NCBI GenBank assembly: GCA_951406725.2
Contig: OX597832.1
Coordinates: forward strand, 42,904,001-42,968,000
Length of the DNA: 64,000 nt
Direction of reading: 5' to 3'
From: Octopus vulgaris
Taxonomy: Eukaryota
Below, piece after piece: positions 27,838 through 63,346 of the stretch. Within the stretch, counting starts at the first letter, position 1, and every line of letters starts with the position of its first letter. Made by a program: the position numbers and the translations under genes. Under the pieces are notes generated by a model. That model was not told where the DNA came from and ran no database searches. It was given only the letters and a program-made list of their open reading frames with translations.

Positions 27838-28040
27838 TAAATATATACATATACATATATGTATTTGTTGATATATATCTGTATATATTTATGGATATAT
27901 ATATATATATATATATACAGTGAGAGAGAGAGAGAGAGAATTATGCGGAAATGCAAATTAGACACATCAAATATATTATGCACGTATGTATGTATGCATG
28001 TATGTATGTATGTATGTATGTATGTATGTATGTACTACAC

Positions 28041-28170
28041 CTTCTGCGGAAGAGCGTAGGCTCGAAACGTTAACAACATTTTCAATTCCCAAGCATTATG
28101 CTAATACATCTGTTTGTTTTCTACACCACCTGAACGCGTCTTTCGTTTTTTTTTCGTGAATTCTTCCCTT
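28041..28170 (+). mobile_element. Truncated copy of the 56455 family with a hammerhead remnant
   Basis: CTGCGGAAGAGCGTAGGCTCGAAACGTT, with downstream similarity to 56510-56635. Confidence 0.55.
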
Positions 28171-28232
28171 ATATATGTATGTATGTATATATTCATAGAT
28201 GGATGGATGGATGAATGGATAGATGGATAAAT

Positions 28233-28288
<56 letters not shown>

Positions 28289-28312
28289 ATATATGTGTGT
28301 CTTTATGTAGAC

Positions 28313-28386
<74 letters not shown>

Positions 28387-28390
<4 letters not shown>

Positions 28391-28600
28391 AATGTGACCG
28401 CGTGTGTACCGCTGGCGATTTTTTTCCCTCTGTCTTCCCTTCTGTGGATCTTTCCTTCTCCTATGTTTCCAACGAAGAGCTTCGCTCGAAACGTTTAACC
28501 CTCCTTCTTTCCTTCTTTCCTGAGCGTCCAATAACACTATACTTGTTCCACGTCCTCGGGTTGTTGTGTTTTTTTGTGCTTTCTTGTTTGGATTAACTTT
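28387..28600 (+). mobile_element. (TA)n-embedded element with a degenerate hammerhead motif at 28465-28499
   Basis: High similarity to the reverse complement of 52198-52400. The motif GTTT-CCAACGA-A-GAGC TTC GCTC-GAAACGTT has G5 mutated to A. Confidence 0.7.
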
Positions 28601-36255: not shown

Positions 36256-36572
36256 CACACACACACACTTAAGTAAGCACTTAAGTGCAACAAAAGATGG
36301 AAAAAATAGTACTCGAATACCAAATGTAGAATAATATGCAATTTTATTAATTTTTTAATGCTGAAAAATTCTTCCCAAATTCTTACTCTGAGTAAGAGTT
36401 CATGAAAAGCTTAAGAGTGAAGTGGGGGAACACATAAATCTGTGTTACTCCTTGACAGAATAATAGGCCGTATGGCTATGGGAAAGTTGTAGATTTGATT
36501 TCGAATCTGAGGTAGGACTAAGAGATAAAGATAGATAGAGAGAGAGAGAGTGAGTGAGCGCGCGCTTGTGTG

Positions 36573-37310
36573 ACTAGCGTGTTGCTAGAAATAAGAGCCA
36601 AATCATTCTAATGTTATAGTAAACGCACATGAATGAAAGTATATACAATAACAGGGACCATAATCGTCGGAAAAGTGCCGATCAAGAATTCTTAATACTG
36701 GCGCGTCAGTTTCGGCAATTTCCGTTGCCTCAGCAGTTAAGACAACTCGGCTTCGGCTCTTTCCGGATTCGCTTCGCCAATAGTATTTATATTTTCGTCA
36801 TCCACATAATTGGATGATTTACCGATTCGCTAATGTGCACATATAAAATTAATATAAACACCAGTTTATAATATTTCACCAAAAAGAATTACAAATGTCA
36901 CTTTTCGGATGATTATGATCCTTGTTAGTATATATATTTTTATTCGTGTACGCTAACTACCGCATTAGAGTGATTTAACTCTTATTTCTAGCAATGTAGG
37001 TGCTTCGCAACACCTACATTGCAAATTGTCGTTTATGTTAATTTTATATATACACATTAGCGAATCGCTAAGTCATCCAATTATTTGGATGACGAAAGCA
37101 TAAATGCTAATGACGAAGCGAGTCCGGAAAGAGCCGAAGCCGAGCTGTCTTAACTGATGGGGCAACGGAAATTGCCGAAACTGACGTGTCAAAGAATTCT
37201 GGATCGGCACTTTTCGGACGATTGTGGTCCCTGTTCGTGTATAAGTTTTCCTTCATGTGCGTTAACTAGAGCATTTGAACATTTAAGCTCTAATTTCTAG
37301 CAATGCTGGT
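36573..37310. repeat. Long imperfect inverted repeat (arms of about 285 bp), MITE-like or foldback-like
   Basis: 36573-36859 is the reverse complement of 37031-37310 at roughly 80-85% identity by eye. The spacer holds a third diverged partial copy at about 36899-37001. Confidence 0.88.
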
Positions 37311-42226: not shown

Positions 42227-45223
42227 TTACATAGAGAGTATTTTGCGTAGGATATGAGCAGTTCCCATGAGCACTATCTTTTGAACTTCTGCCATTTTTG
42301 GGTTTCCTGGTATCTGAGTTAGGTAGCTATCAGCCCCTTTTGCTATCATTCCCAGGGCACCTATGACAACAGGTATTGTTTTAGTCTTCAGCTTCCACAT
42401 TTTGCTGATTTCTATTTCAAGATCTTTATATTTGCTCAGTTTTTGGTAGGTCTTGACAGATACGTTTATATCGATTGGGACAGTCATATCAATGAGGAGG
42501 CATGTTCTTTGTTTGAAGTTTTTCAATATGATGTCTGGCCTATTTGCATCTATCTTCCTGTCAGTTTGAATGGTGAAGTTCCAGAGGAGTGAGATGTGGT
42601 CATTTTCAAGCACTGGGGGTGGTTTGTGTTCCCACCAGTTTTTTTCATGGGGCAAATCCAGGTTTTTACAGATTACCCAGTGAATATATTGTGCAGCTCT
42701 ATCGTGCCTGTTGAGATACTCTGTAGGCGCTAGAAGACTGCACTTGGAGACCACATGGTCAATGGTTTCATTTTGTTGCTTGCATACACGACACGTTGGA
42801 CTGCTTCTGATCTTTAATATGTTGGCCTGGTAGTTTCTTGTTGGTAGGCATTGATCTTGAGCTGCTATGATAAACCCCTCTGTTTCAGATTTTAAGCCAG
42901 AGGCCATTAGCCATTGATGGGTCAGGGCTTTGTCGATATCTGCATTATTCGCTCTCTTTGGGTATTTGCCATAGAGAGGTTTTTCTTGCCATTTATTATT
43001 CAGAATATCTAAGGCCGCAGTTTTGGCACGGGTTTTCATGCGCCTAGCTTTTTCTGTGCTTGTTTCTTGTATATCTATCTCTAATTCCGAAATTGGTTGT
43101 ATTCGGAATTCACTTAGATATTCCTTTGCCTGTTTTGTGACTGAGTATGATGCTTTCTTGTTTTCATGTTTTGAGACAAGTTTTAGCATCCAGTCCTCAG
43201 AGTTTTTCAGGTAGGTGTCTAGGCCAATTGTAGCAATCTTCATTGTTATTGCCAGTTGCAAAAGACCACGGCCTCCCTCTTTTCTTGGCAGATAGAGTCG
43301 TTCTGTATCTGCCTTAGGGTGGTGCATTCTATGCATTGTCAACAGTTTCCTTATTTTTCTGTCGAGCTGACATATTTCAGTAATTGACCAGTTAACAATA
43401 TTGAAACTGTAAGTCACGACTGGTATAGCTAATGCATTGATTGCTTCGATCCTGTTTCTTGCATTCAGCTCTGTCTTGAGTATTGCTCTCACTCTTCGAT
43501 AGCATTCTCTCCTGATCCTTTCCTTCATCTCTGAATGCCTTATTCCGTTCCCTTCAATTATCCCTAGGTACTTGTAGCTCTCCGCTGGGTCTAGTTCTTT
43601 TATGACATTCTGTTGGTCAAGGTTAACGTTAGATGTTTCTGTCATTTTTCCTTTGATAAAGGTAGCCTTTGCACATTTATCGAGGCCGAATTGCATTCTG
43701 ATGTCGTCACTGAATTGTTTGACTATCGCTAGTAAGCCCTTGAGTTGTTGATCATTTTTTGCAAAAAGCTTTAAATCATCCATGTAAACGAGATGATTTA
43801 TATTTTTATCAAACATTTTATACCCGTACTGCGCGTCATTGAGCAGCTTTGAGAGAGGTATTAAGGATAAACAAAAGAGGAGTGGTGACAGTGAGTCACC
43901 CTGGAAAATGCCACACGAAATTTTTACATCACCAGCATTTAGGGATTCACTGTCACTGTTCAGAGTTAGTGTGGTTCTCCATGATCTCATACTTACAGTC
44001 AAGAAGTTTCGCAGAGTTGGTGCTATCTTATACATTTCAAGGCATTTCCTAATCCAGCTATGTGGTAGGCTATCAAAAGCCTTTTTATAGTCTATCCAGG
44101 CTATTGATAAGTTTTTGTGTCGTTTGTGACAATCTTCTAAGATCATCTTATTGATGAGTAGTTGGTCTTTACAGCCGTAGGATCCACGTTTACATCCTTT
44201 CTGTTCATTAGGGAATATGCTGCTGTCTGTTAAAAAACTATAGGTATATTCCGTCAGGACAGATGTTAGTGTTTTGTACATAGTTGTTAAGCAGGTTATG
44301 GGTCTATAGTTTTTTGGTTCATTTGTTTCTTCACTTTTTGGAAGCAGGAATGTTAACCCATTAACTAGCCAAGGAGGCATCCTACTAGGGTGTTGCAAAA
44401 CATCATTGTACAGTTCTGTTAGCAGTTCATGGCTCTCTGGGAAGGCATTCAGCCAGAAGTTAGGAATTTTATCCTTTCCTGGAGACTTCCATTTGCTTGA
44501 CCTCCTGAGAGCAGATCTTATATCTTCTACCTTGACACCCTCCCACTTTTGCTCTTCTAAGGGGTCCAGTTCTGTAGATATTCTGTCAATCCAGGGGGCC
44601 TTTTCGTTGTGTGTTTTTTCTTCTGCCCAGATTTTATTCCAAAATCTCTGCACTTCTTCTTTTGATGGTACAGACCCTGCAGTAAACGCTGTTTTTCCTA
44701 TCTTCCTGTAAAAATTCTTGGTATTATTTTTGAACATGTTGTTGTCCTTGAAAAATCTAACACGCTTTTCATACCTCGCTATGCGGGCAGCTTTGGCAGA
44801 TACCTTTTGTTTGATGGTTTCTATGGTGGCATCAATATCAAGTATAGTTTTCATATTGTATTTTTTCAGTAATTTTTGGGTTTTTGTAGGTTTGGTAATC
44901 TTGTGAGCCTTAAGGTTTTTCAAATATTCAATGTCAGATCTAAATATTTTAATTTGTTGTTGCAGACGCTCTTGCCAAGAAGGCTTTTTGTGGGACTGTT
45001 GCCGTTTTCTAATCTTTACACCACATAGGATCGTTGAGATTTTCGCGGATGCATAGTATAGGTGGTTGAGGTTTGTGATATCAACATCATTAACTGAAAT
45101 TATATCCTTAAGTGCAAGCCGGATTTTACCAATTATTTTCATGTTTTGGTTAGAGTTGCGGATTTTAGGAAGTGTATCACGCTCATCCATGCTGGTTTCT
45201 TTAATTTTCAGCCATTCAATCAT
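42227..45223 (-). CDS. Reverse transcriptase plus CCHC zinc finger plus restriction-like endonuclease (998 aa; C-terminal part of the element ORF)
   Basis: RT motifs KSPGKDKIPNFW, NYRPITCL, WIDYKKAFDSLPH, GIFQGDSLSPLLF, YMDDLK and YKYLG. Zinc finger CRVCKQQNETIDHVVSKC followed by RHD. RLE core RPDIIL...IDMTVP...KLSKY. Confidence 0.95.
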   Translation of the reverse strand: MIEWLKIKETSMDERDTLPKIRNSNQNMKIIGKIRLALKDIISVNDVDITNLNHLYYASAKISTILCGVKIRKRQQSHKKPSWQERLQQQIKIFRSDIEYLKNLKAHKITKPTKTQKLLKKYNMKTILDIDATIETIKQKVSAKAARIARYEKRVRFFKDNNMFKNNTKNFYRKIGKTAFTAGSVPSKEEVQRFWNKIWAEEKTHNEKAPWIDRISTELDPLEEQKWEGVKVEDIRSALRRSSKWKSPGKDKIPNFWLNAFPESHELLTELYNDVLQHPSRMPPWLVNGLTFLLPKSEETNEPKNYRPITCLTTMYKTLTSVLTEYTYSFLTDSSIFPNEQKGCKRGSYGCKDQLLINKMILEDCHKRHKNLSIAWIDYKKAFDSLPHSWIRKCLEMYKIAPTLRNFLTVSMRSWRTTLTLNSDSESLNAGDVKISCGIFQGDSLSPLLFCLSLIPLSKLLNDAQYGYKMFDKNINHLVYMDDLKLFAKNDQQLKGLLAIVKQFSDDIRMQFGLDKCAKATFIKGKMTETSNVNLDQQNVIKELDPAESYKYLGIIEGNGIRHSEMKERIRRECYRRVRAILKTELNARNRIEAINALAIPVVTYSFNIVNWSITEICQLDRKIRKLLTMHRMHHPKADTERLYLPRKEGGRGLLQLAITMKIATIGLDTYLKNSEDWMLKLVSKHENKKASYSVTKQAKEYLSEFRIQPISELEIDIQETSTEKARRMKTRAKTAALDILNNKWQEKPLYGKYPKRANNADIDKALTHQWLMASGLKSETEGFIIAAQDQCLPTRNYQANILKIRSSPTCRVCKQQNETIDHVVSKCSLLAPTEYLNRHDRAAQYIHWVICKNLDLPHEKNWWEHKPPPVLENDHISLLWNFTIQTDRKIDANRPDIILKNFKQRTCLLIDMTVPIDINVSVKTYQKLSKYKDLEIEISKMWKLKTKTIPVVIGALGMIAKGADSYLTQIPGNPKMAEVQKIVLMGTAHILRKILSM

Positions 45224-45234
45224 GATTTGATTTT

Positions 45235-46047
45235 TTAGCTCATGTAGTTCTCTGTTGGGTCAATATTTGTGTGACTTTCTTTATCTATTTGATGCTCATC
45301 TGTCTTAGTGTTTATGATTGGTTCAGGGCGTATTTCACTTTGCCTATCACTTATACTAACTCTTTCAATCCTCTCTTCGTTTTTATCCGCCCTGGGCTGG
45401 TCTATAATCATTTCCTCTGTATTATCTTCTCTAGCTGCAGCTTCGTTCATTTTATCCGATATTGCTTGTCTAACCTGATCAATCTCTACTTCAGTCAGTA
45501 ATTTCTTTTTTATAATGTTTCTTCTAACATTGGCAAGCTTGTTACTGTCTATGTAGGGTCTTACTTCAGGGTGTTTCTGTCTCCAGTTTAAGTATGCTTG
45601 TACAGTGCTAGACTTATCTGTGGGGAAATATATGGCATGGTAGAAGGCCTCAAGAACTTCTTTATTATCTTCCCTAGACCATTTTTCCTTCTTTTTCTTT
45701 TGATTATTTGGTGATGAGCATGGATGGCCATCTGTTGGAATATTCCGGTTGTGGGGTTCGTCCAGCTCCTGTGTGTTGGGAAGATTTGATCCAGTAACTG
45801 ATTTTTCAATCAGGATTTGGTTCAATTTTCGGGTACGTGGTCTTTTGTAATCCGCGCAATGACCAATGCGGTTTATTGTTTGATTTGTTGACCTTGAAGC
45901 ATGACGAGCATCCATTCTTATATTAGGAGATGGATCTGTCAGTTTAGGGTTCACTACATGTAAGCATTGCTCATAGCGCCGCTTCTTAAGACTAGCAGAT
46001 CTATATTCGTCTGTATTTTTTTTGTTGATAGTTTTATCTCCGGACAT
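45235..46047 (-). CDS. N-terminal 270 aa of the retrotransposon ORF, separated from the RT part by a -1 frameshift
   Basis: Segment KKEKWSREDNKEVLEAFY...NKLANVRRNIIKKKLLTEVEIDQV resembles the N-termini of RLE-type elements. The downstream frame is open from 45259 (PNRELHELKNQIMIEW), overlapping this ORF at 45238-45259. Confidence 0.75.
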   Translation of the reverse strand: MSGDKTINKKNTDEYRSASLKKRRYEQCLHVVNPKLTDPSPNIRMDARHASRSTNQTINRIGHCADYKRPRTRKLNQILIEKSVTGSNLPNTQELDEPHNRNIPTDGHPCSSPNNQKKKKEKWSREDNKEVLEAFYHAIYFPTDKSSTVQAYLNWRQKHPEVRPYIDSNKLANVRRNIIKKKLLTEVEIDQVRQAISDKMNEAAAREDNTEEMIIDQPRADKNEERIERVSISDRQSEIRPEPIINTKTDEHQIDKESHTNIDPTENYMS

Positions 46048-46180
46048 TTTTTTTTTTTTTTTTTTCCTTTCCTCCTCTTCCTTTCTTCAAGGCTTACTGT
46101 GTCTGTATTAGTTCGAAATAATGAGAATAAAATACGGAGAAGGAAACGAAAAGAAAGGGAAAAAGACGGGATCTGTCAGT

Positions 46181-50868: not shown

Positions 50869-52111
50869 AAGTAGTAGTAGATGATGTTGATGACGTTGCT
50901 GCTTGTTTATTTGTTTGTTTGTTGAGCGAAGCGGTCTTCGTGGGGGAAGTCCGAAACTTTTCGTATAAAGGACAAAACGATTACAACAATTAAAGTATGC
51001 TTTTATTTGATGTGACTGCTTGCATGAAGGCTTGGAGGGACGGTAACCGATGCACACGAGTCGATCCAAACACTCAGTTTTCGGTGATGTAATAGAGGTC
51101 AATCATTATGACGATAATGAGTTGGGCGACCGAGGCGACGAGGAGGAGGAGGAGGAGGAGGAGGAGGAGAAGGAGGAGGACGACGAAGACTGAAGAATCA
51201 TGGTGGAGTTAAAGGTGTCAATAAGACGAAAATACTAGTGTTATTTATGTTGGTGGTAGTGATGATGTTAGGGGTGGAGTTGGCGGTGGAACTGTACTGT
51301 GGTGGTGGTAGTTATGGAGACGATAATGAAGGTGGTGATGATGAATATAAGATGATAATGATGTCAATGACGATGATGGTGATGATGATGACGAGGAAGA
51401 GGCGAAGGAGGAATTCGATGATCAATTTAATGATGGCAGTTGATGAAGATAGTGAACATGATAACGATAATGATGACGATGACAACGATGATGATGATGA
51501 TGGTGGTGGTGGTAATGGTGGTAGCAGTGATAATGTTGTTAGTGGTAATGGTGGTCGTGCTGGTGGATGTTGTGACGATGATGATGATCGTGATGATGAT
51601 GATGGTGGTCATCGTCGTCGTCGTGATCGTGGTGGTCGTGGTGGTCGTGGTGGTCGTGGTGGCGGTAGCAGTGATGGTGTTGTCAGTGGGAATGGTGATC
51701 GTGCTGGTGGATGTTGTGGCGATGATGATCATGATCATGATGATCATGATGATGCATACCCCACACCTTGTTGTGAGCAAATCATTATCAGCGCCACAAA
51801 CCGGGGCGTGGCGCGAACACTATTGTTTTGTAAATAGTTAATTAGTTTAAAGCTTGCTTAATTGAATATTTTAATTAGGTAGTTTTACAAAGGCAAACAA
51901 TTAATTACTGATGCTTTCCTCCTGTCACGCTGACAATGAAAACGACGCAGTTTAATTAGTCTGATTTAGAAGGATGGCACAGAGTTTATATAGCGAACAA
52001 GACGGAAGGGTCATCGGTTCAATACCTGTCATTAGCACTGTGTGTTTGCATCTATCATGGAAACAATTTCTATCTCATGAATTCACAGCAATCTCAAATG
52101 GTATCACAAGG

Positions 52112-52202
<91 letters not shown>

Positions 52203-52295
52203 ATCCAAACAAGAAAACACAAAAAAACACAACAACGCGAGGACGTGGAACAAATATAGTATTATTGGACGCTCAGGAAAGAAGGGAAGAAGGAG

Positions 52296-52331
52296 GTTTT
52301 AACGTTTCGAGCGGAGCTCTTCGTCGGAAAC
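52296..52331 (-). ncRNA. Minimal hammerhead ribozyme motif
   Basis: Minus strand: GTTT-CCGACGA-A-GAGC TCC GCTC-GAAACGTTA-AAAC. Stem III overlaps the palindrome AACGTT. Confidence 0.6.
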
Positions 52332-52440
52332 ATAGGAGAAGGAAAGATTCTGAGAAGGGAAGACAGAGGAAAAAAAATCGCCAACGGTACACACGAGGTC
52401 ATATATACTTTATTTAAAGCAGCAGAAAATTCAACAAAGC

Positions 52441-52478
52441 CTGTTACTCTGAGTTTCACGTTCCCGTTCGTCGGACAG
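52441..52478 (-). ncRNA. Type I hammerhead ribozyme motif
   Basis: Minus strand: CTGT-CCGACGA-ACG GGAA CGT-GAA-ACTC A GAGT-A-ACAG. All three stems pair, the C3-G8 pair is kept, and the cleavage triplet is GUA. Confidence 0.75.
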
Positions 52479-52880
52479 TTTTTGCTATATATATATCAGC
52501 ATTGATATAAAGATAAATAAATCCAAGTGCAGGTATGGGTGCTTGATACTAAGTTTGCTTTCCAACCACGTGGTTCCGGGTTCAGTCTCATTACTACAGC
52601 ACCGGGCCGACCAGAACCCCGAGAATTAAATTCGGCTGACGGAAACCGAAATGAACCCCGTCATATATATATGTGAGCATTTGTGTGTGTGTGTGTGTGT
52701 GTAGGTAGGTATGGCAACGACACCCCGGTCTCGCGCCATTTCCGCTCTAACCGGTCACTCTTTACAACACTTCTCTGTGTTCGGATTGTCCTTGCACATA
52801 CACACATATAAATATATATATGTACATACATATATATACAAACACACACATGCAACACACATATGAATATATAGATATAT

Positions 52881-53739: not shown

Positions 53740-54304
53740 TTGGGTTGTCCGGAAAGTTCGTGCCGATGTTTAAAGGAAAGAAAAAGGTCGATAAATACTT
53801 GCTATTACATTTTTAATCAACCAAATATGAACCATTTTGTTACACAATGCGTCTCCATCTTTCCTTTAACTTGAAAATACCCTCTTCCCAGAATTGAGGT
53901 GGTTTCATGGCAAAGAATTCATCAAGGTATCTTTTTACGTCATCCAAGGAATTGAAATTTTTACCATTAAGACTAATCTGCAGAGACCTGAATAAGTGGA
54001 AATCGGAAGGAGCAATATCTGGTGAATATGGAGGGTGGCGTTACACATCCCAGCCAAGCTGCAGCAATTTTTGTCTGGTTCCCAAAGCATCAAGTGCTGA
54101 AAATGAACTTTCTTACCTTCCATTTTAAAGGGTTACAGAATCAACATAGGTTATACGAACATAAACCGTCTTTCACGAAAAGATAGCTTAAACTGTGCTC
54201 TAAATGGAGGTGTAGTCAAATCCTCGTTTATGGACTCAATCATGTTCTAAAATAAATCGAAATATAAGCTACTATAAATCGGCATGAACTTTCCGGACAA
54301 CCCA

Positions 54305-56346: not shown

Positions 56347-56454
56347 TATATATATATACATACATATATACACCCACATTTATATATATATGGGTACATA
56401 ATATATATATATGAATGTGTATGTGTATATATACATATATTTGTGTATGATAGA

Positions 56455-56635
56455 TCGTTAGCTCCTACACGCATTTTTTTCTCTCCTTGTTTTTTTTCTG
56501 TGTATCTTTCTGTCAAAGAGCGTAGGCTCGAAACGTAAAAGATTTTTTCTATTCCTGAGTGCTATACTAATACATTTGTTTATTTGTACTCCACCTGCCT
56601 TCGTCTTTTGTTTATTTTTGTAAACTTTCCCCGTT
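56455..56635 (+). mobile_element. Microsatellite-embedded element with a degenerate hammerhead motif at 56504-56543
   Basis: ATCTTT-CTGTCAA-A-GAGC GTAG GCTC-GAAACGTA-AAAGAT. The stems are intact but the core is mutated. A homologous truncated copy lies at 28041-28170. Confidence 0.6.
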
Positions 56636-57693: not shown

Positions 57694-57937
57694 CATATAT
57701 ATATACATATATTAAAATTACTAAGTCTCTCTATTTTTATTTTTATTTTTATAAGAATGCCATATTAGTATGGCGATAACTATTATTTTCCGGGAACGCT
57801 GCCGCTGTTCTCTTTTAGAGAGACTTAGTAATTTTAATATTTCTATTATTGAAAACAAGTGGATGTATTCCACCGAAACTAGGTAAATAAAACCATCGAA
57901 CAGAGATTGTCGGAAGCGACACCTACTGGCTGGCTAC

Positions 57938-57979
57938 GCTGCATTGAAAAGGGGCAATACCCCGAAACGCGTCTGTAGC
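57938..57979 (+). ncRNA. Minimal type I hammerhead ribozyme motif, copy 1
   Basis: GCTGCA-TTGAAAA-GGGG CAATA CCCC-GAAA-CGCG-TC-TGTAGC. Stem I is 6 bp with one GU pair, the core has the compensatory U3-A8 pair, stem II is 4 bp, stem III is palindromic, and the GUC cleavage site ends at 57973. Confidence 0.75.
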
Positions 57980-58299
57980 TGCCGGTCAAGTAGTGTGGAG
58001 CGACTGACCTCCCTTGTTCGAAGGTTATATGGATACAGTTTGTGTATCAAATAGCTAACTTAAGGCGATGGCCTCATGGAGCTAATAAGCGGACAGCTTT
58101 ATTCTTATTTTTATAAGAATGCCATATTAGTATGGCGATAACTATTATTTTCCGGGAACGCTGCCGCTGTTCTCTTTTAGAGAGACTTAGTAATTTTAAT
58201 ATTTCTATTATTGAAAACAAGTGGATGTATTCCACCGAAACTAGGTAAATAAAACCATCGAACAGAGATTGTCGGAAGCGACACCTACTGGCTGGCTAC

Positions 58300-58341
58300 G
58301 CTGCATTGAAAAGGGGCAATACCCCGAAACGCGTCTGTAGC
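58300..58341 (+). ncRNA. Minimal type I hammerhead ribozyme motif, copy 2
   Basis: Same sequence as 57938-57979, offset by 362 bp. Confidence 0.75.
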
Positions 58342-58504
58342 TGCCGGTCAAGTAGTGTGGAGCGACTGACCTCCCTTGTTCGAAGGTTATATGGATACAG
58401 TTTGTGTATCAAATAGCTAACTTAAGGCGATGGCCTCATGGAGCTAATAAGCGGACAGCTTTATTCTTATTTTTATAAGAATGCCATATTAGTATGGCGA
58501 TAAC

Positions 58505-58575
<71 letters not shown>

Positions 58576-62627: not shown

Positions 62628-63346
<719 letters not shown>

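What the first reader, a model, noticed from the sequence alone, without database searches (positions are those of the whole stretch)
52198..52487. Two different hammerhead motifs in tandem in a (TA)n-embedded element
Seen on the minus strand: CTGT-CCGACGA-ACG GGAA CGT-GAA-ACTC A GAGT-A-ACAG (52478-52441) and GTTT-CCGACGA-A-GAGC TCC GCTC-GAAACGTTA-AAAC (52331-52296). Both share the unusual CCGACGA core (U4C) but have unrelated stems, which argues for conserved structure over chance. Stem III loops are too small for a monomer, suggesting dimeric folding as in Penelope-like element hammerheads. Double cleavage would excise about 145 nt.
Basis: partly seen in the sequence, partly recalled or inferred. 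Interest (0 to 1): 0.7.

Follow-up and report, generated by a model that had tools for sequence, protein, structure and literature searches.

The report
Stacked Penelope retrotransposon hammerhead remnants
Two short DNA pieces, each with a hammerhead self-cutting RNA motif bearing the same uncommon core change, sit back to back in a TA repeat; they are likely leftovers of two different Penelope-type jumping genes that landed separately and are predicted not to cut as a pair, so this is mostly ordinary.

Summary
Both type I hammerhead motifs are real and beyond chance (3 descriptor hits in 64 kb; 0.075 per shuffle), but they are not one bipartite element. HHR1 lies in a 78-nt piece whose helix I and helix III match published Hydra-clade Penelope-like element (PLE) hammerheads. 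HHR2 lies in a 206-nt piece that recurs at 28.4 kb without HHR1, behind a different hammerhead module. It fits the minimal PLE hammerhead consensus and matches a motif 3' of a GIY-YIG PLE in locus L002. A TATATAT remnant separates the pieces. A double hammerhead between HHR1 and HHR2 is excluded in silico (1-bp cross helices, +34.5 kcal/mol penalty), whereas a 362-nt tandem elsewhere in the window folds into one with no penalty. Best reading: two independent, 5'-truncated PLE 3' ends stacked in a (TA)n target, probably inert; release of a 144-nt RNA is unlikely. What remains of interest is the U4C core in two PLE types, apparently family-level in one. Cleavage and genome-wide families were not tested.

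The parts
52486..52496 (.). Short (TA)n upstream flank, probable target remnant
   Evidence: Sequence
52408..52485 (-). Module 1: 78-nt piece read as the 5'-truncated 3' end of a Hydra-type PLE; ends in AATAAAG, 33 nt after helix I
   Evidence: no second copy in the window by blastn or nhmmer; motif matches Hydra-clade rows
52441..52478 (-). HHR1: type I hammerhead, U4C core, helix I 4 bp, helix II 3 bp, 9-nt near-palindromic helix III segment, predicted cut after A52445
52401..52407 (.). TATATAT spacer between the modules; overlaps the first bases of module 2
52199..52404 (-). Module 2 (family A): 206-nt pyrimidine-rich PLE 3' end or pLTR piece, Neptune-like
   Evidence: 92% identical sibling at 28392-28597 with the same 3' end; similarity stops near 52404
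52298..52330 (-). HHR2: minimal type I hammerhead, U4C core, unpaired A, helix II 4 bp, palindromic ACGU, helix I 3 bp, predicted cut after U52301
52115..52198 (.). (TA)n array of 42.5 units directly after the 3' end of module 2
28392..28597 (+). Second family A copy: keeps C4, has G5A and a broken helix I (decayed), has no HHR1 upstream, lies between (TA)n arrays
28034..28169 (+). Family B hammerhead module (U4 core, decayed), upstream of the 28.4-kb family A copy in the same microsatellite tract
56450..56635 (+). Second family B module: 6-bp helix I, same helix II and ACGU, core decayed

Best explanation
The locus holds two hammerhead-bearing pieces separated by a TA remnant, and they are likely the 5'-truncated 3' ends of two unrelated Penelope-like retrotransposons (a Hydra-type one with HHR1, a Neptune-like one with HHR2) that likely inserted independently into one (TA)n microsatellite and are predicted to be nearly inert here. 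Mechanism, by step. Shown: both motifs, the TA spacer, the separate occurrence of module 2, and the lack of cross-pairing between the motifs. From established PLE biology: a GIY-YIG endonuclease nicks TA-rich DNA, the RT copies the RNA from its 3' end and usually stops early, leaving a short hammerhead-bearing 3' end. Inferred: in the parent elements each ribozyme works as a homodimer, in which two tandem copies pair through the palindromic helix III and swap helix I arms, then cut after H17. Inferred for this locus: each motif lacks a partner in cis, carries the activity-lowering U4C and has short helices, so at most slow cleavage with a same-family RNA in trans would occur.
For: Module 2 recurs at 28392-28597 (15 differences in 202 nt, same 3' end, both followed by (TA)n) without HHR1, and similarity ends near 52404. 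That copy sits behind a different hammerhead module, family B, in its own microsatellite tract. HHR1's helix III segment is identical to that of Penelope-3_HM; the ACTC-N-GAGT pattern occurs in 5 of 25 Hydra families and a 9-nt segment in 19 of 25; its helix I equals that of Hydra-2_aMil (PMC8557442 File S2, counted by eye). HHR1 lies 33 nt from its module end; Hydra families range from 25 to 350 nt, 10 of 24 within 25-45. Almost all Hydra families insert into (TA)n. HHR2 matches the minimal PLE consensus except at U4; 29 of 56 listed motifs have the same ACGU (PMC4209133 Fig. S3, counted by eye). L002 holds the same core, helix II and ACGU about 100 nt after a GIY-YIG ORF (Pfam E 6.5e-5) preceded by a CxxxxCxxC linker. 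Double hammerhead energies: HHR1 with itself -16.8, HHR2 with itself -1.9, HHR1 with HHR2 +9.5 kcal/mol. Forcing the HHR1-HHR2 fold in cis costs 34.5 kcal/mol; the 362-nt tandem control costs 0.0. In the 293-nt transcript helix I pair probabilities are below 0.01 for both motifs.
Against: No coding sequence is attached to either module, so both clade labels rest on motif likeness only. Module 1 has one copy in the window and module 2 two, so boundaries rest on little data. The two family A copies begin within about 10 nt of each other, which fits a defined non-autonomous unit as well as random truncation. The TA spacer is only 7 nt. Two adjacent motifs sharing U4C and C7 is not explained by independent insertion: 0 of 26 Hydra rows and 0 of 56 minimal-motif rows have C4, though those searches were built on the canonical core. 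Covariation among the four window copies is not significant (1 compensatory pair; 178 of 500 shuffles as high). Folding energies omit tertiary contacts and Mg2+.
Confidence: 0.8

Rival explanations
1. Chimeric unit: a family A element once captured a Hydra-type 3' end (template switch or read-through) and the pair was inserted here in one event, perhaps as a small subfamily, with no joint ribozyme function.
For: Same orientation, a 7-nt junction with TA microhomology, and a shared U4C/C7 core. PLEs often insert into or next to existing PLE copies (PMC6765202, passage).
Against: The only other family A copy lacks module 1 and has different upstream bases. A second stack in the window pairs family A with family B instead. 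The junction is itself (TA)n, the reported target.
Confidence: 0.11
2. One reading: a functional bipartite element whose two different hammerheads both cut and release a 144-nt RNA that could circularise like a retrozyme.
For: Both cores are complete apart from U4C, on one strand, 144 nt apart. U4C was reported to keep enough activity in vivo for viroid infectivity (PMC3088659, passage). HHR1 can form a weak monomer.
Against: The motifs cannot partner each other. HHR2 has no monomeric helix III and a 3-bp A-U helix I. Described non-LTR retrozymes are tandems of one unit, about 170-400 nt (PMC7229834). The 144-nt piece would not contain a whole ribozyme of either family when circularised (inference from the coordinates). 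The nearest Pol III-type A/B box pair on this strand is about 650 nt upstream, and a T4 run at 52429 and a T8 run at 52377 lie between the motifs.
Confidence: 0.05
3. Module 2 is not a truncated autonomous PLE but a short non-autonomous PLE derivative (solo pLTR or retrozyme monomer) of defined length; module 1 is still a separate insertion.
For: Both family A copies start within about 10 nt and end at the same base. Retrozymes are proposed to derive from PLE pLTRs and occur as monomers (10.64898/2026.07.22.740005).
Against: Only two copies; no tandem of family A in the window; the hammerhead is the minimal PLE form. This differs from the best explanation only in the source of module 2.
Confidence: 0.03
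4. Chance resemblance to hammerheads.
For: No Rfam hit; no folding signal; 2 of 3 pattern matches in bacterial genomes were chance hits inside ORFs.
Against: Shuffle control; near identity to published PLE motifs; four related copies keep helix II and ACGU unchanged.
Confidence: 0.01

Closest known systems
Hydra-clade PLE hammerheads (Craig et al. 2021, PMC8557442; Penelope-3_HM, Hydra-2_aMil, Hydra-2_aJap)
   Same: Type I fold, 9-nt helix III segment ACTC-N-GAGT, helix I equal to that of Hydra-2_aMil, position near the 3' end, (TA)n flanks.
   Different: HHR1 has U4C (0 of 26 listed rows do) and a 3-bp helix II; no ORF is attached; it is not the motif of Hydra-1_Obim.
Minimal PLE hammerheads, min-HHR (Cervera and de la Pena 2014, PMC4209133); nearest by eye: Acropora digitifera Neptune motif
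   Same: Unpaired base after A9, G10.1-C11.1, palindromic ACGU, short helix I, U-rich upstream flank, mostly solitary copies.
   Different: U4C in both family A copies (0 of 56 listed rows); A-U-only 3-bp helix I in this copy.
Non-LTR retrozymes (PMC7229834; 10.64898/2026.07.22.740005)
   Same: Short non-coding unit with a type I hammerhead, PLE-related.
   Different: Retrozymes are tandems of one unit; here the two motifs and their flanks are unrelated and cannot dimerise. The 362-nt tandem at 57.7-58.5 kb is the retrozyme-like object in this window.
U4C viroid hammerhead variant (cited in Perreault et al. 2011, PMC3088659)
   Same: Same core change, reported to lower activity in vitro but permit infectivity.
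   Different: Viroid context; there is no evidence here for the tertiary contacts thought to offset such changes.

Membership tests
Hammerhead ribozyme (type I) | Core C3-U4-G5-A6-N7-G8-A9, G12-A13-A14, A15.1-U16.1, H17 | tested here: inconclusive
   All positions met in both motifs except U4, which is C; U4C is a known natural variant of reduced activity.
Hammerhead ribozyme (type I) | Three helices around the core | tested here: met
   HHR1 4/3/3 bp as a monomer or 4/3/8 as a homodimer; HHR2 3/4 bp with helix III only as a homodimer. Not the favoured fold in the 293-nt transcript.
Hammerhead ribozyme (type I) | Match to an Rfam hammerhead model | tested here: not met
   the relaxed-descriptor motif at 36736 and the 362-nt tandem motifs were missed too.
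Hammerhead ribozyme (type I) | Self-cleavage after H17 | not testable with these tools
   Needs an in vitro assay.
Hydra-clade PLE (module 1) | 3'-proximal hammerhead with 9-10-nt self-complementary helix III segment | tested here: met
Hydra-clade PLE (module 1) | Insertion in (TA)n | tested here: met
   TA on both sides; the 3' side is 7 nt only.
Hydra-clade PLE (module 1) | RT with RWK and DKT motifs, CxCX5C linker, GIY-YIG lacking CCHH | not testable with these tools
   The 78-nt piece has no ORF; no PLE protein match in 122 window ORFs; no eukaryotic genome collection on hand.
Neptune/Nematis-type PLE (module 2) | min-HHR consensus with palindromic 15.2-16.2 | tested here: met
   this feature is shared with Poseidon and other clades, so it does not fix the clade.
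Neptune/Nematis-type PLE (module 2) | RT followed by CX2-5CxxC linker and GIY-YIG | tested here: inconclusive
   Absent from the window. Linker and GIY-YIG are present in L002, whose motif matches HHR2 over 28 nt only; the RT-like frames of L002 gave no Pfam match.
PLE in general | Partial tandem (pLTR) giving a homologous dimer partner | tested here: not met
   Neither module is duplicated in tandem.
Non-LTR retrozyme | At least two consecutive homologous units, each with a complete hammerhead | tested here: not met
   Definition; the two modules are not homologous.
Non-LTR retrozyme | Expression as linear and circular RNA | not testable with these tools
   No RNA data.

The most novel reading that the evidence does not exclude
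A propagating chimeric mini-element that joins hammerheads of two PLE clades, both tuned down by the same U4C/C7 core, each cutting with a same-family RNA supplied in trans, so that a 144-nt RNA is released only when both families are expressed. A milder and likelier novelty (about 0.3 probable, interest about 0.4) is that U4C is a fixed, working core in both a Hydra-type and a Neptune-like family of this host, missed by canonical-core searches.
Probability: 0.05. Interest if true: 0.65.

Novelty: new member of a known kind. Interest (0 to 1): 0.25.

Why it matters
As read here it matters little: PLE hammerheads in truncated 3' ends are reported by the thousand in animal genomes, and stacking in (TA)n follows from a shared target. 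Its use is practical. It shows C4 in both copies of one PLE family and in a second motif type, which canonical-core descriptors and Rfam miss, so hammerhead counts in such genomes may be too low. It also supplies natural constructs for asking whether C4 (with C7) still cleaves. If the chimeric reading were true it would be a two-family coincidence detector, which I did not find described in the searches made.

Tried and rejected
Rfam at gathering and E-value level: no hammerhead hit. Folding z-scores: uninformative; 6 motifs folded, z from -2.06 to +1.27. Further copies of module 1 in the window: none (blastn; nhmmer, one weak hit at E 1.8). Further family A/B copies: none beyond the four in the profile. 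PLE RT or GIY-YIG in the window: 0 of 122 ORFs scanned (121 stop-to-stop frames of at least 60 aa and under 15% masked, plus one); the only RT match is the 1010-aa ORF at 42.2-45.3 kb. Covariation: four window copies not significant; adding L002 gave 3 compensatory pairs in helix I, with 12 of 500 shuffles reaching the score and 32 of 500 the pair count, but L002 was chosen by a pattern that fixed the core, helix II and part of helix III, and five related rows prove little. No covariance model was built: too few sequences. Genome-contig scan: 3 matches; L001 and L003 lie in long ORFs of GC-rich contigs and were dropped as chance. The second, inverted PLE copy in L002 runs off the fetched stretch before its hammerhead would appear, so its core is unseen. 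Host identification through the RT ORF failed: 3 of the 120 listed hits named an organism, all arthropods at 41-49% identity. Supplements of PMC8557442 and PMC13282606 hold no exact match to the HHR1 or HHR2 12-mers searched. Lunse et al. on small PLE hammerhead variants is not held and may already describe U4C. A duplication origin of the two motifs was rejected: no similarity outside the core.

Full report
Setting. The window is AT-rich animal-type DNA, 28.5% masked as simple repeats, with SINE-like repeats and one long RT ORF. It looks like octopus DNA to me; that label is recalled and comes from no call, and a protein search did not name the host. Octopus genomes do carry (TA)n-targeting PLEs: Hydra-1_Obim and Naiad_Obim are listed in PMC8557442, and PLEs cover 6.83% of O. 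vulgaris in 190 families (PMC13282606 supplement).

Observation. Both motifs are present as described. A strict type I descriptor returns only these two in 64 kb; a relaxed one returns 3, against 0.075 per shuffle, and 0 of 40 shuffles give a same-strand pair within 300 nt. HHR1 has helices of 4 and 3 bp and a 9-nt segment ACUCAGAGU that pairs with a second copy at 8 of 9 positions. HHR2 has an unpaired A after the core, a 4-bp helix II and the palindrome ACGU. Its cleavage site is better placed at U52301, giving a 3-bp helix I; the relatives at 56.5 kb (6-bp helix I) and in L002 use this register. The sibling copy has C where this copy has A52297; a C there would give a fourth pair, so this copy may have lost one (inference from two copies). 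Rfam sees neither motif.

Two modules, not one element. Self-comparison shows the HHR2-bearing 206 nt (52404-52199) again at 28392-28597 on the other strand, with 15 differences in 202 nt and the same 3' end before (TA)n. Upstream of 52404 the copies diverge: the 28.4-kb copy has six other bases and then (TA)n, while the 52-kb copy has TATATAT and then module 1. Module 1 (52485-52408) has no other copy in the window. The 28.4-kb copy is itself preceded, about 220 nt upstream in the same microsatellite tract and on the same strand, by a module of a related family B (28034-28169), which recurs alone at 56450-56635. So the window holds two stacks of unlike hammerhead modules with different partners. 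That is what independent insertion into a shared (TA)n target predicts. All six modules examined end at TA-rich sequence (4.8% of positions are followed by a TATATA-like hexamer), but I set some boundaries by the TA itself, so this is weak evidence.

What each module is. HHR1 matches Hydra-clade PLE hammerheads in File S2 of PMC8557442 (26 rows, 25 families, counted by eye): 19 of 25 families have a 9-nt helix III segment, 5 of 25 have ACTC-N-GAGT, Penelope-3_HM has the identical nine bases, and Hydra-2_aMil has the same helix I. The motif lies 33 nt from the module end (one search printed 30 because I had set the end three bases short; one search shows the last bases). [quoted passage not shown] Almost all Hydra families insert into (TA)n. 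HHR2 fits the min-HHR consensus of PMC4209133 at every position but U4, and 29 of the 56 listed motifs share ACGU. A pattern scan of genome contigs gave 3 matches; two are chance hits in ORFs, and L002 is an animal-like contig carrying decayed PLE copies. There the same core, helix II and ACGU lie about 100 nt after a frame that matches GIY-YIG (E 6.5e-5) and has a CxxxxCxxC linker, the mark of Neptune, Nematis and Naiad elements; the RT-like frames precede it, as in Neptune and Nematis. By eye the L002 motif differs from the A. digitifera Neptune motif at two positions. The likeness of L002 to module 2 is confined to 28 nt, so 'Neptune-like' is a lead, not membership. No PLE protein is encoded in the window.

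Can they work together? In a double hammerhead the palindromic helix III segments pair and the helix I arms swap between partners (geometry from established knowledge; dimer model in PMC4209133). HHR1 and HHR2 give 1 bp each way. Energies of the two-strand double hammerhead are -16.8 kcal/mol for HHR1 with itself (cofold MFE -19.2), -1.9 for HHR2 with itself (MFE -24.7) and +9.5 for the mixed pair. In cis the mixed fold costs 34.5 kcal/mol over the MFE and the HHR1 monomer 10.4, whereas the 362-nt tandem at 57.7-58.5 kb adopts its double hammerhead as the MFE. Helix I probabilities in the 293-nt transcript are below 0.01. PLE min-HHRs showed no cleavage as monomers and low cleavage as dimers, and in a Poseidon element ribozyme mutants did not affect insertion in vitro and no RNA-seq reads ended at the site (PMC11167929). 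The nearest Pol III box pair on this strand is about 650 nt upstream and T runs lie between the motifs; Pol II read-through was not assessed. The 144-nt excision is therefore improbable. These are nearest-neighbour energies without tertiary contacts.

The U4C core. This is the unexplained residue. It is in HHR1, HHR2 and the 28.4-kb sibling, but not in the two family B motifs, the two at 36.7/37.2 kb or the two in the 362-nt tandem: 3 of 9 motifs, 2 of 5 families. Two of two family A copies argue for a family-level trait; HHR1 is a single copy, so a private mutation is possible. C4 creates a CpG, which decay would tend to remove rather than make (general knowledge; the sibling shows a CpG-type change at G5). 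L002 has it too, but the pattern required it. None of 26 Hydra rows or 56 min-HHR rows has C4, though those searches were built on the canonical core. U4C is known from a viroid, with reduced activity in vitro and enough in vivo (PMC3088659), and one virome survey already uses CYGANGA in its descriptor (PMC13481778). Searches for hammerhead with U4C (1 paper), with CCGA-type cores (18 papers, none on PLEs by title) and with octopus (5 papers, 4 listed) found no report of a U4C PLE family. Lunse et al., the paper most likely to have one, is not held; I saw only its title in a reference list.

Papers seen. PMC4209133: parts 1-2 of 4 of the text and parts 1-2 of 3 of the supplementary PDF. PMC8557442: abstract, sections 3, 6 and 11, passages, supplement parts 2 and 53 of 59 and three searches. 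PMC3088659: passages and section 8. 10.64898/2026.07.22.740005: part 1 of 5 and passages; supplements closed. PMC6765202, PMC11167929, PMC7229834, PMC13481778: passages. PMC13282606: passages and one supplement search.

Verdict. Real PLE-type hammerheads; two separate remnants stacked in (TA)n (confidence 0.8); new members of a known kind with a mildly unusual core. Interest 0.25. The most novel reading left open, a propagating two-clade chimera, has probability about 0.05.

Noticed in passing
window 57713-58510 (+): 362-nt tandem (2.1 copies, 99% identical) between (TA)n arrays; each unit has a type I hammerhead with the U3-A8 core variant, 6-bp helix I, 4-bp helix II and palindromic ACGCGU (C3-equivalent at 57944 and 58306). 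The double hammerhead is the MFE fold. Looks like a young non-LTR retrozyme or pLTR tandem and is the best candidate for an active ribozyme in the window.
   Followed up: partly
window 36560-37305: Nested inverted repeats, PLE-like, with a third hammerhead family on both arms: 36736 (-) with A6C, helices 6/5/4 bp and monomer-competent; about 37152 (+) with A9G and a deletion.
   Followed up: partly
window 28034-28597 (+): Second stack of unlike hammerhead modules (family B, then family A) in one microsatellite tract; both decayed.
   Followed up: yes
window 42227-45259 (-), upstream frame 45235-46086 (-): Uninterrupted 1010-aa RT ORF (Pfam RVT_1, E 1.9e-27) between long (TAA)n arrays; its C-terminal motifs look like a restriction-like endonuclease of the Dong/R4 type (label recalled). 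Best relative 63% identical.
   Followed up: partly
window 52497-52500 and 52111-52114: The outer flanks of the two (TA)n arrays form a short inverted repeat (4 bases beyond the TA units); chance or a fold-back event.
   Followed up: no
window 52500-52662; 53193-52880 (-); 51967-52026 (+): SINE-like repeats around the locus: a multi-copy family next to module 1, apparently facing away from it, and two elements with Pol III A/B boxes.
   Followed up: partly
L002 2170-3290 (-) and 4034-5206 (+): A contig filed in a bacterial genome bin holds two inverted, decayed PLE copies, a (TACA)n array and a U4C minimal hammerhead; probably animal DNA in the bin.
   Followed up: partly
window 62836-63270 (+) and 53750-54000 (-): Short frames that resemble mariner transposase ends (recalled); the first gave no Pfam match.
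   Followed up: no
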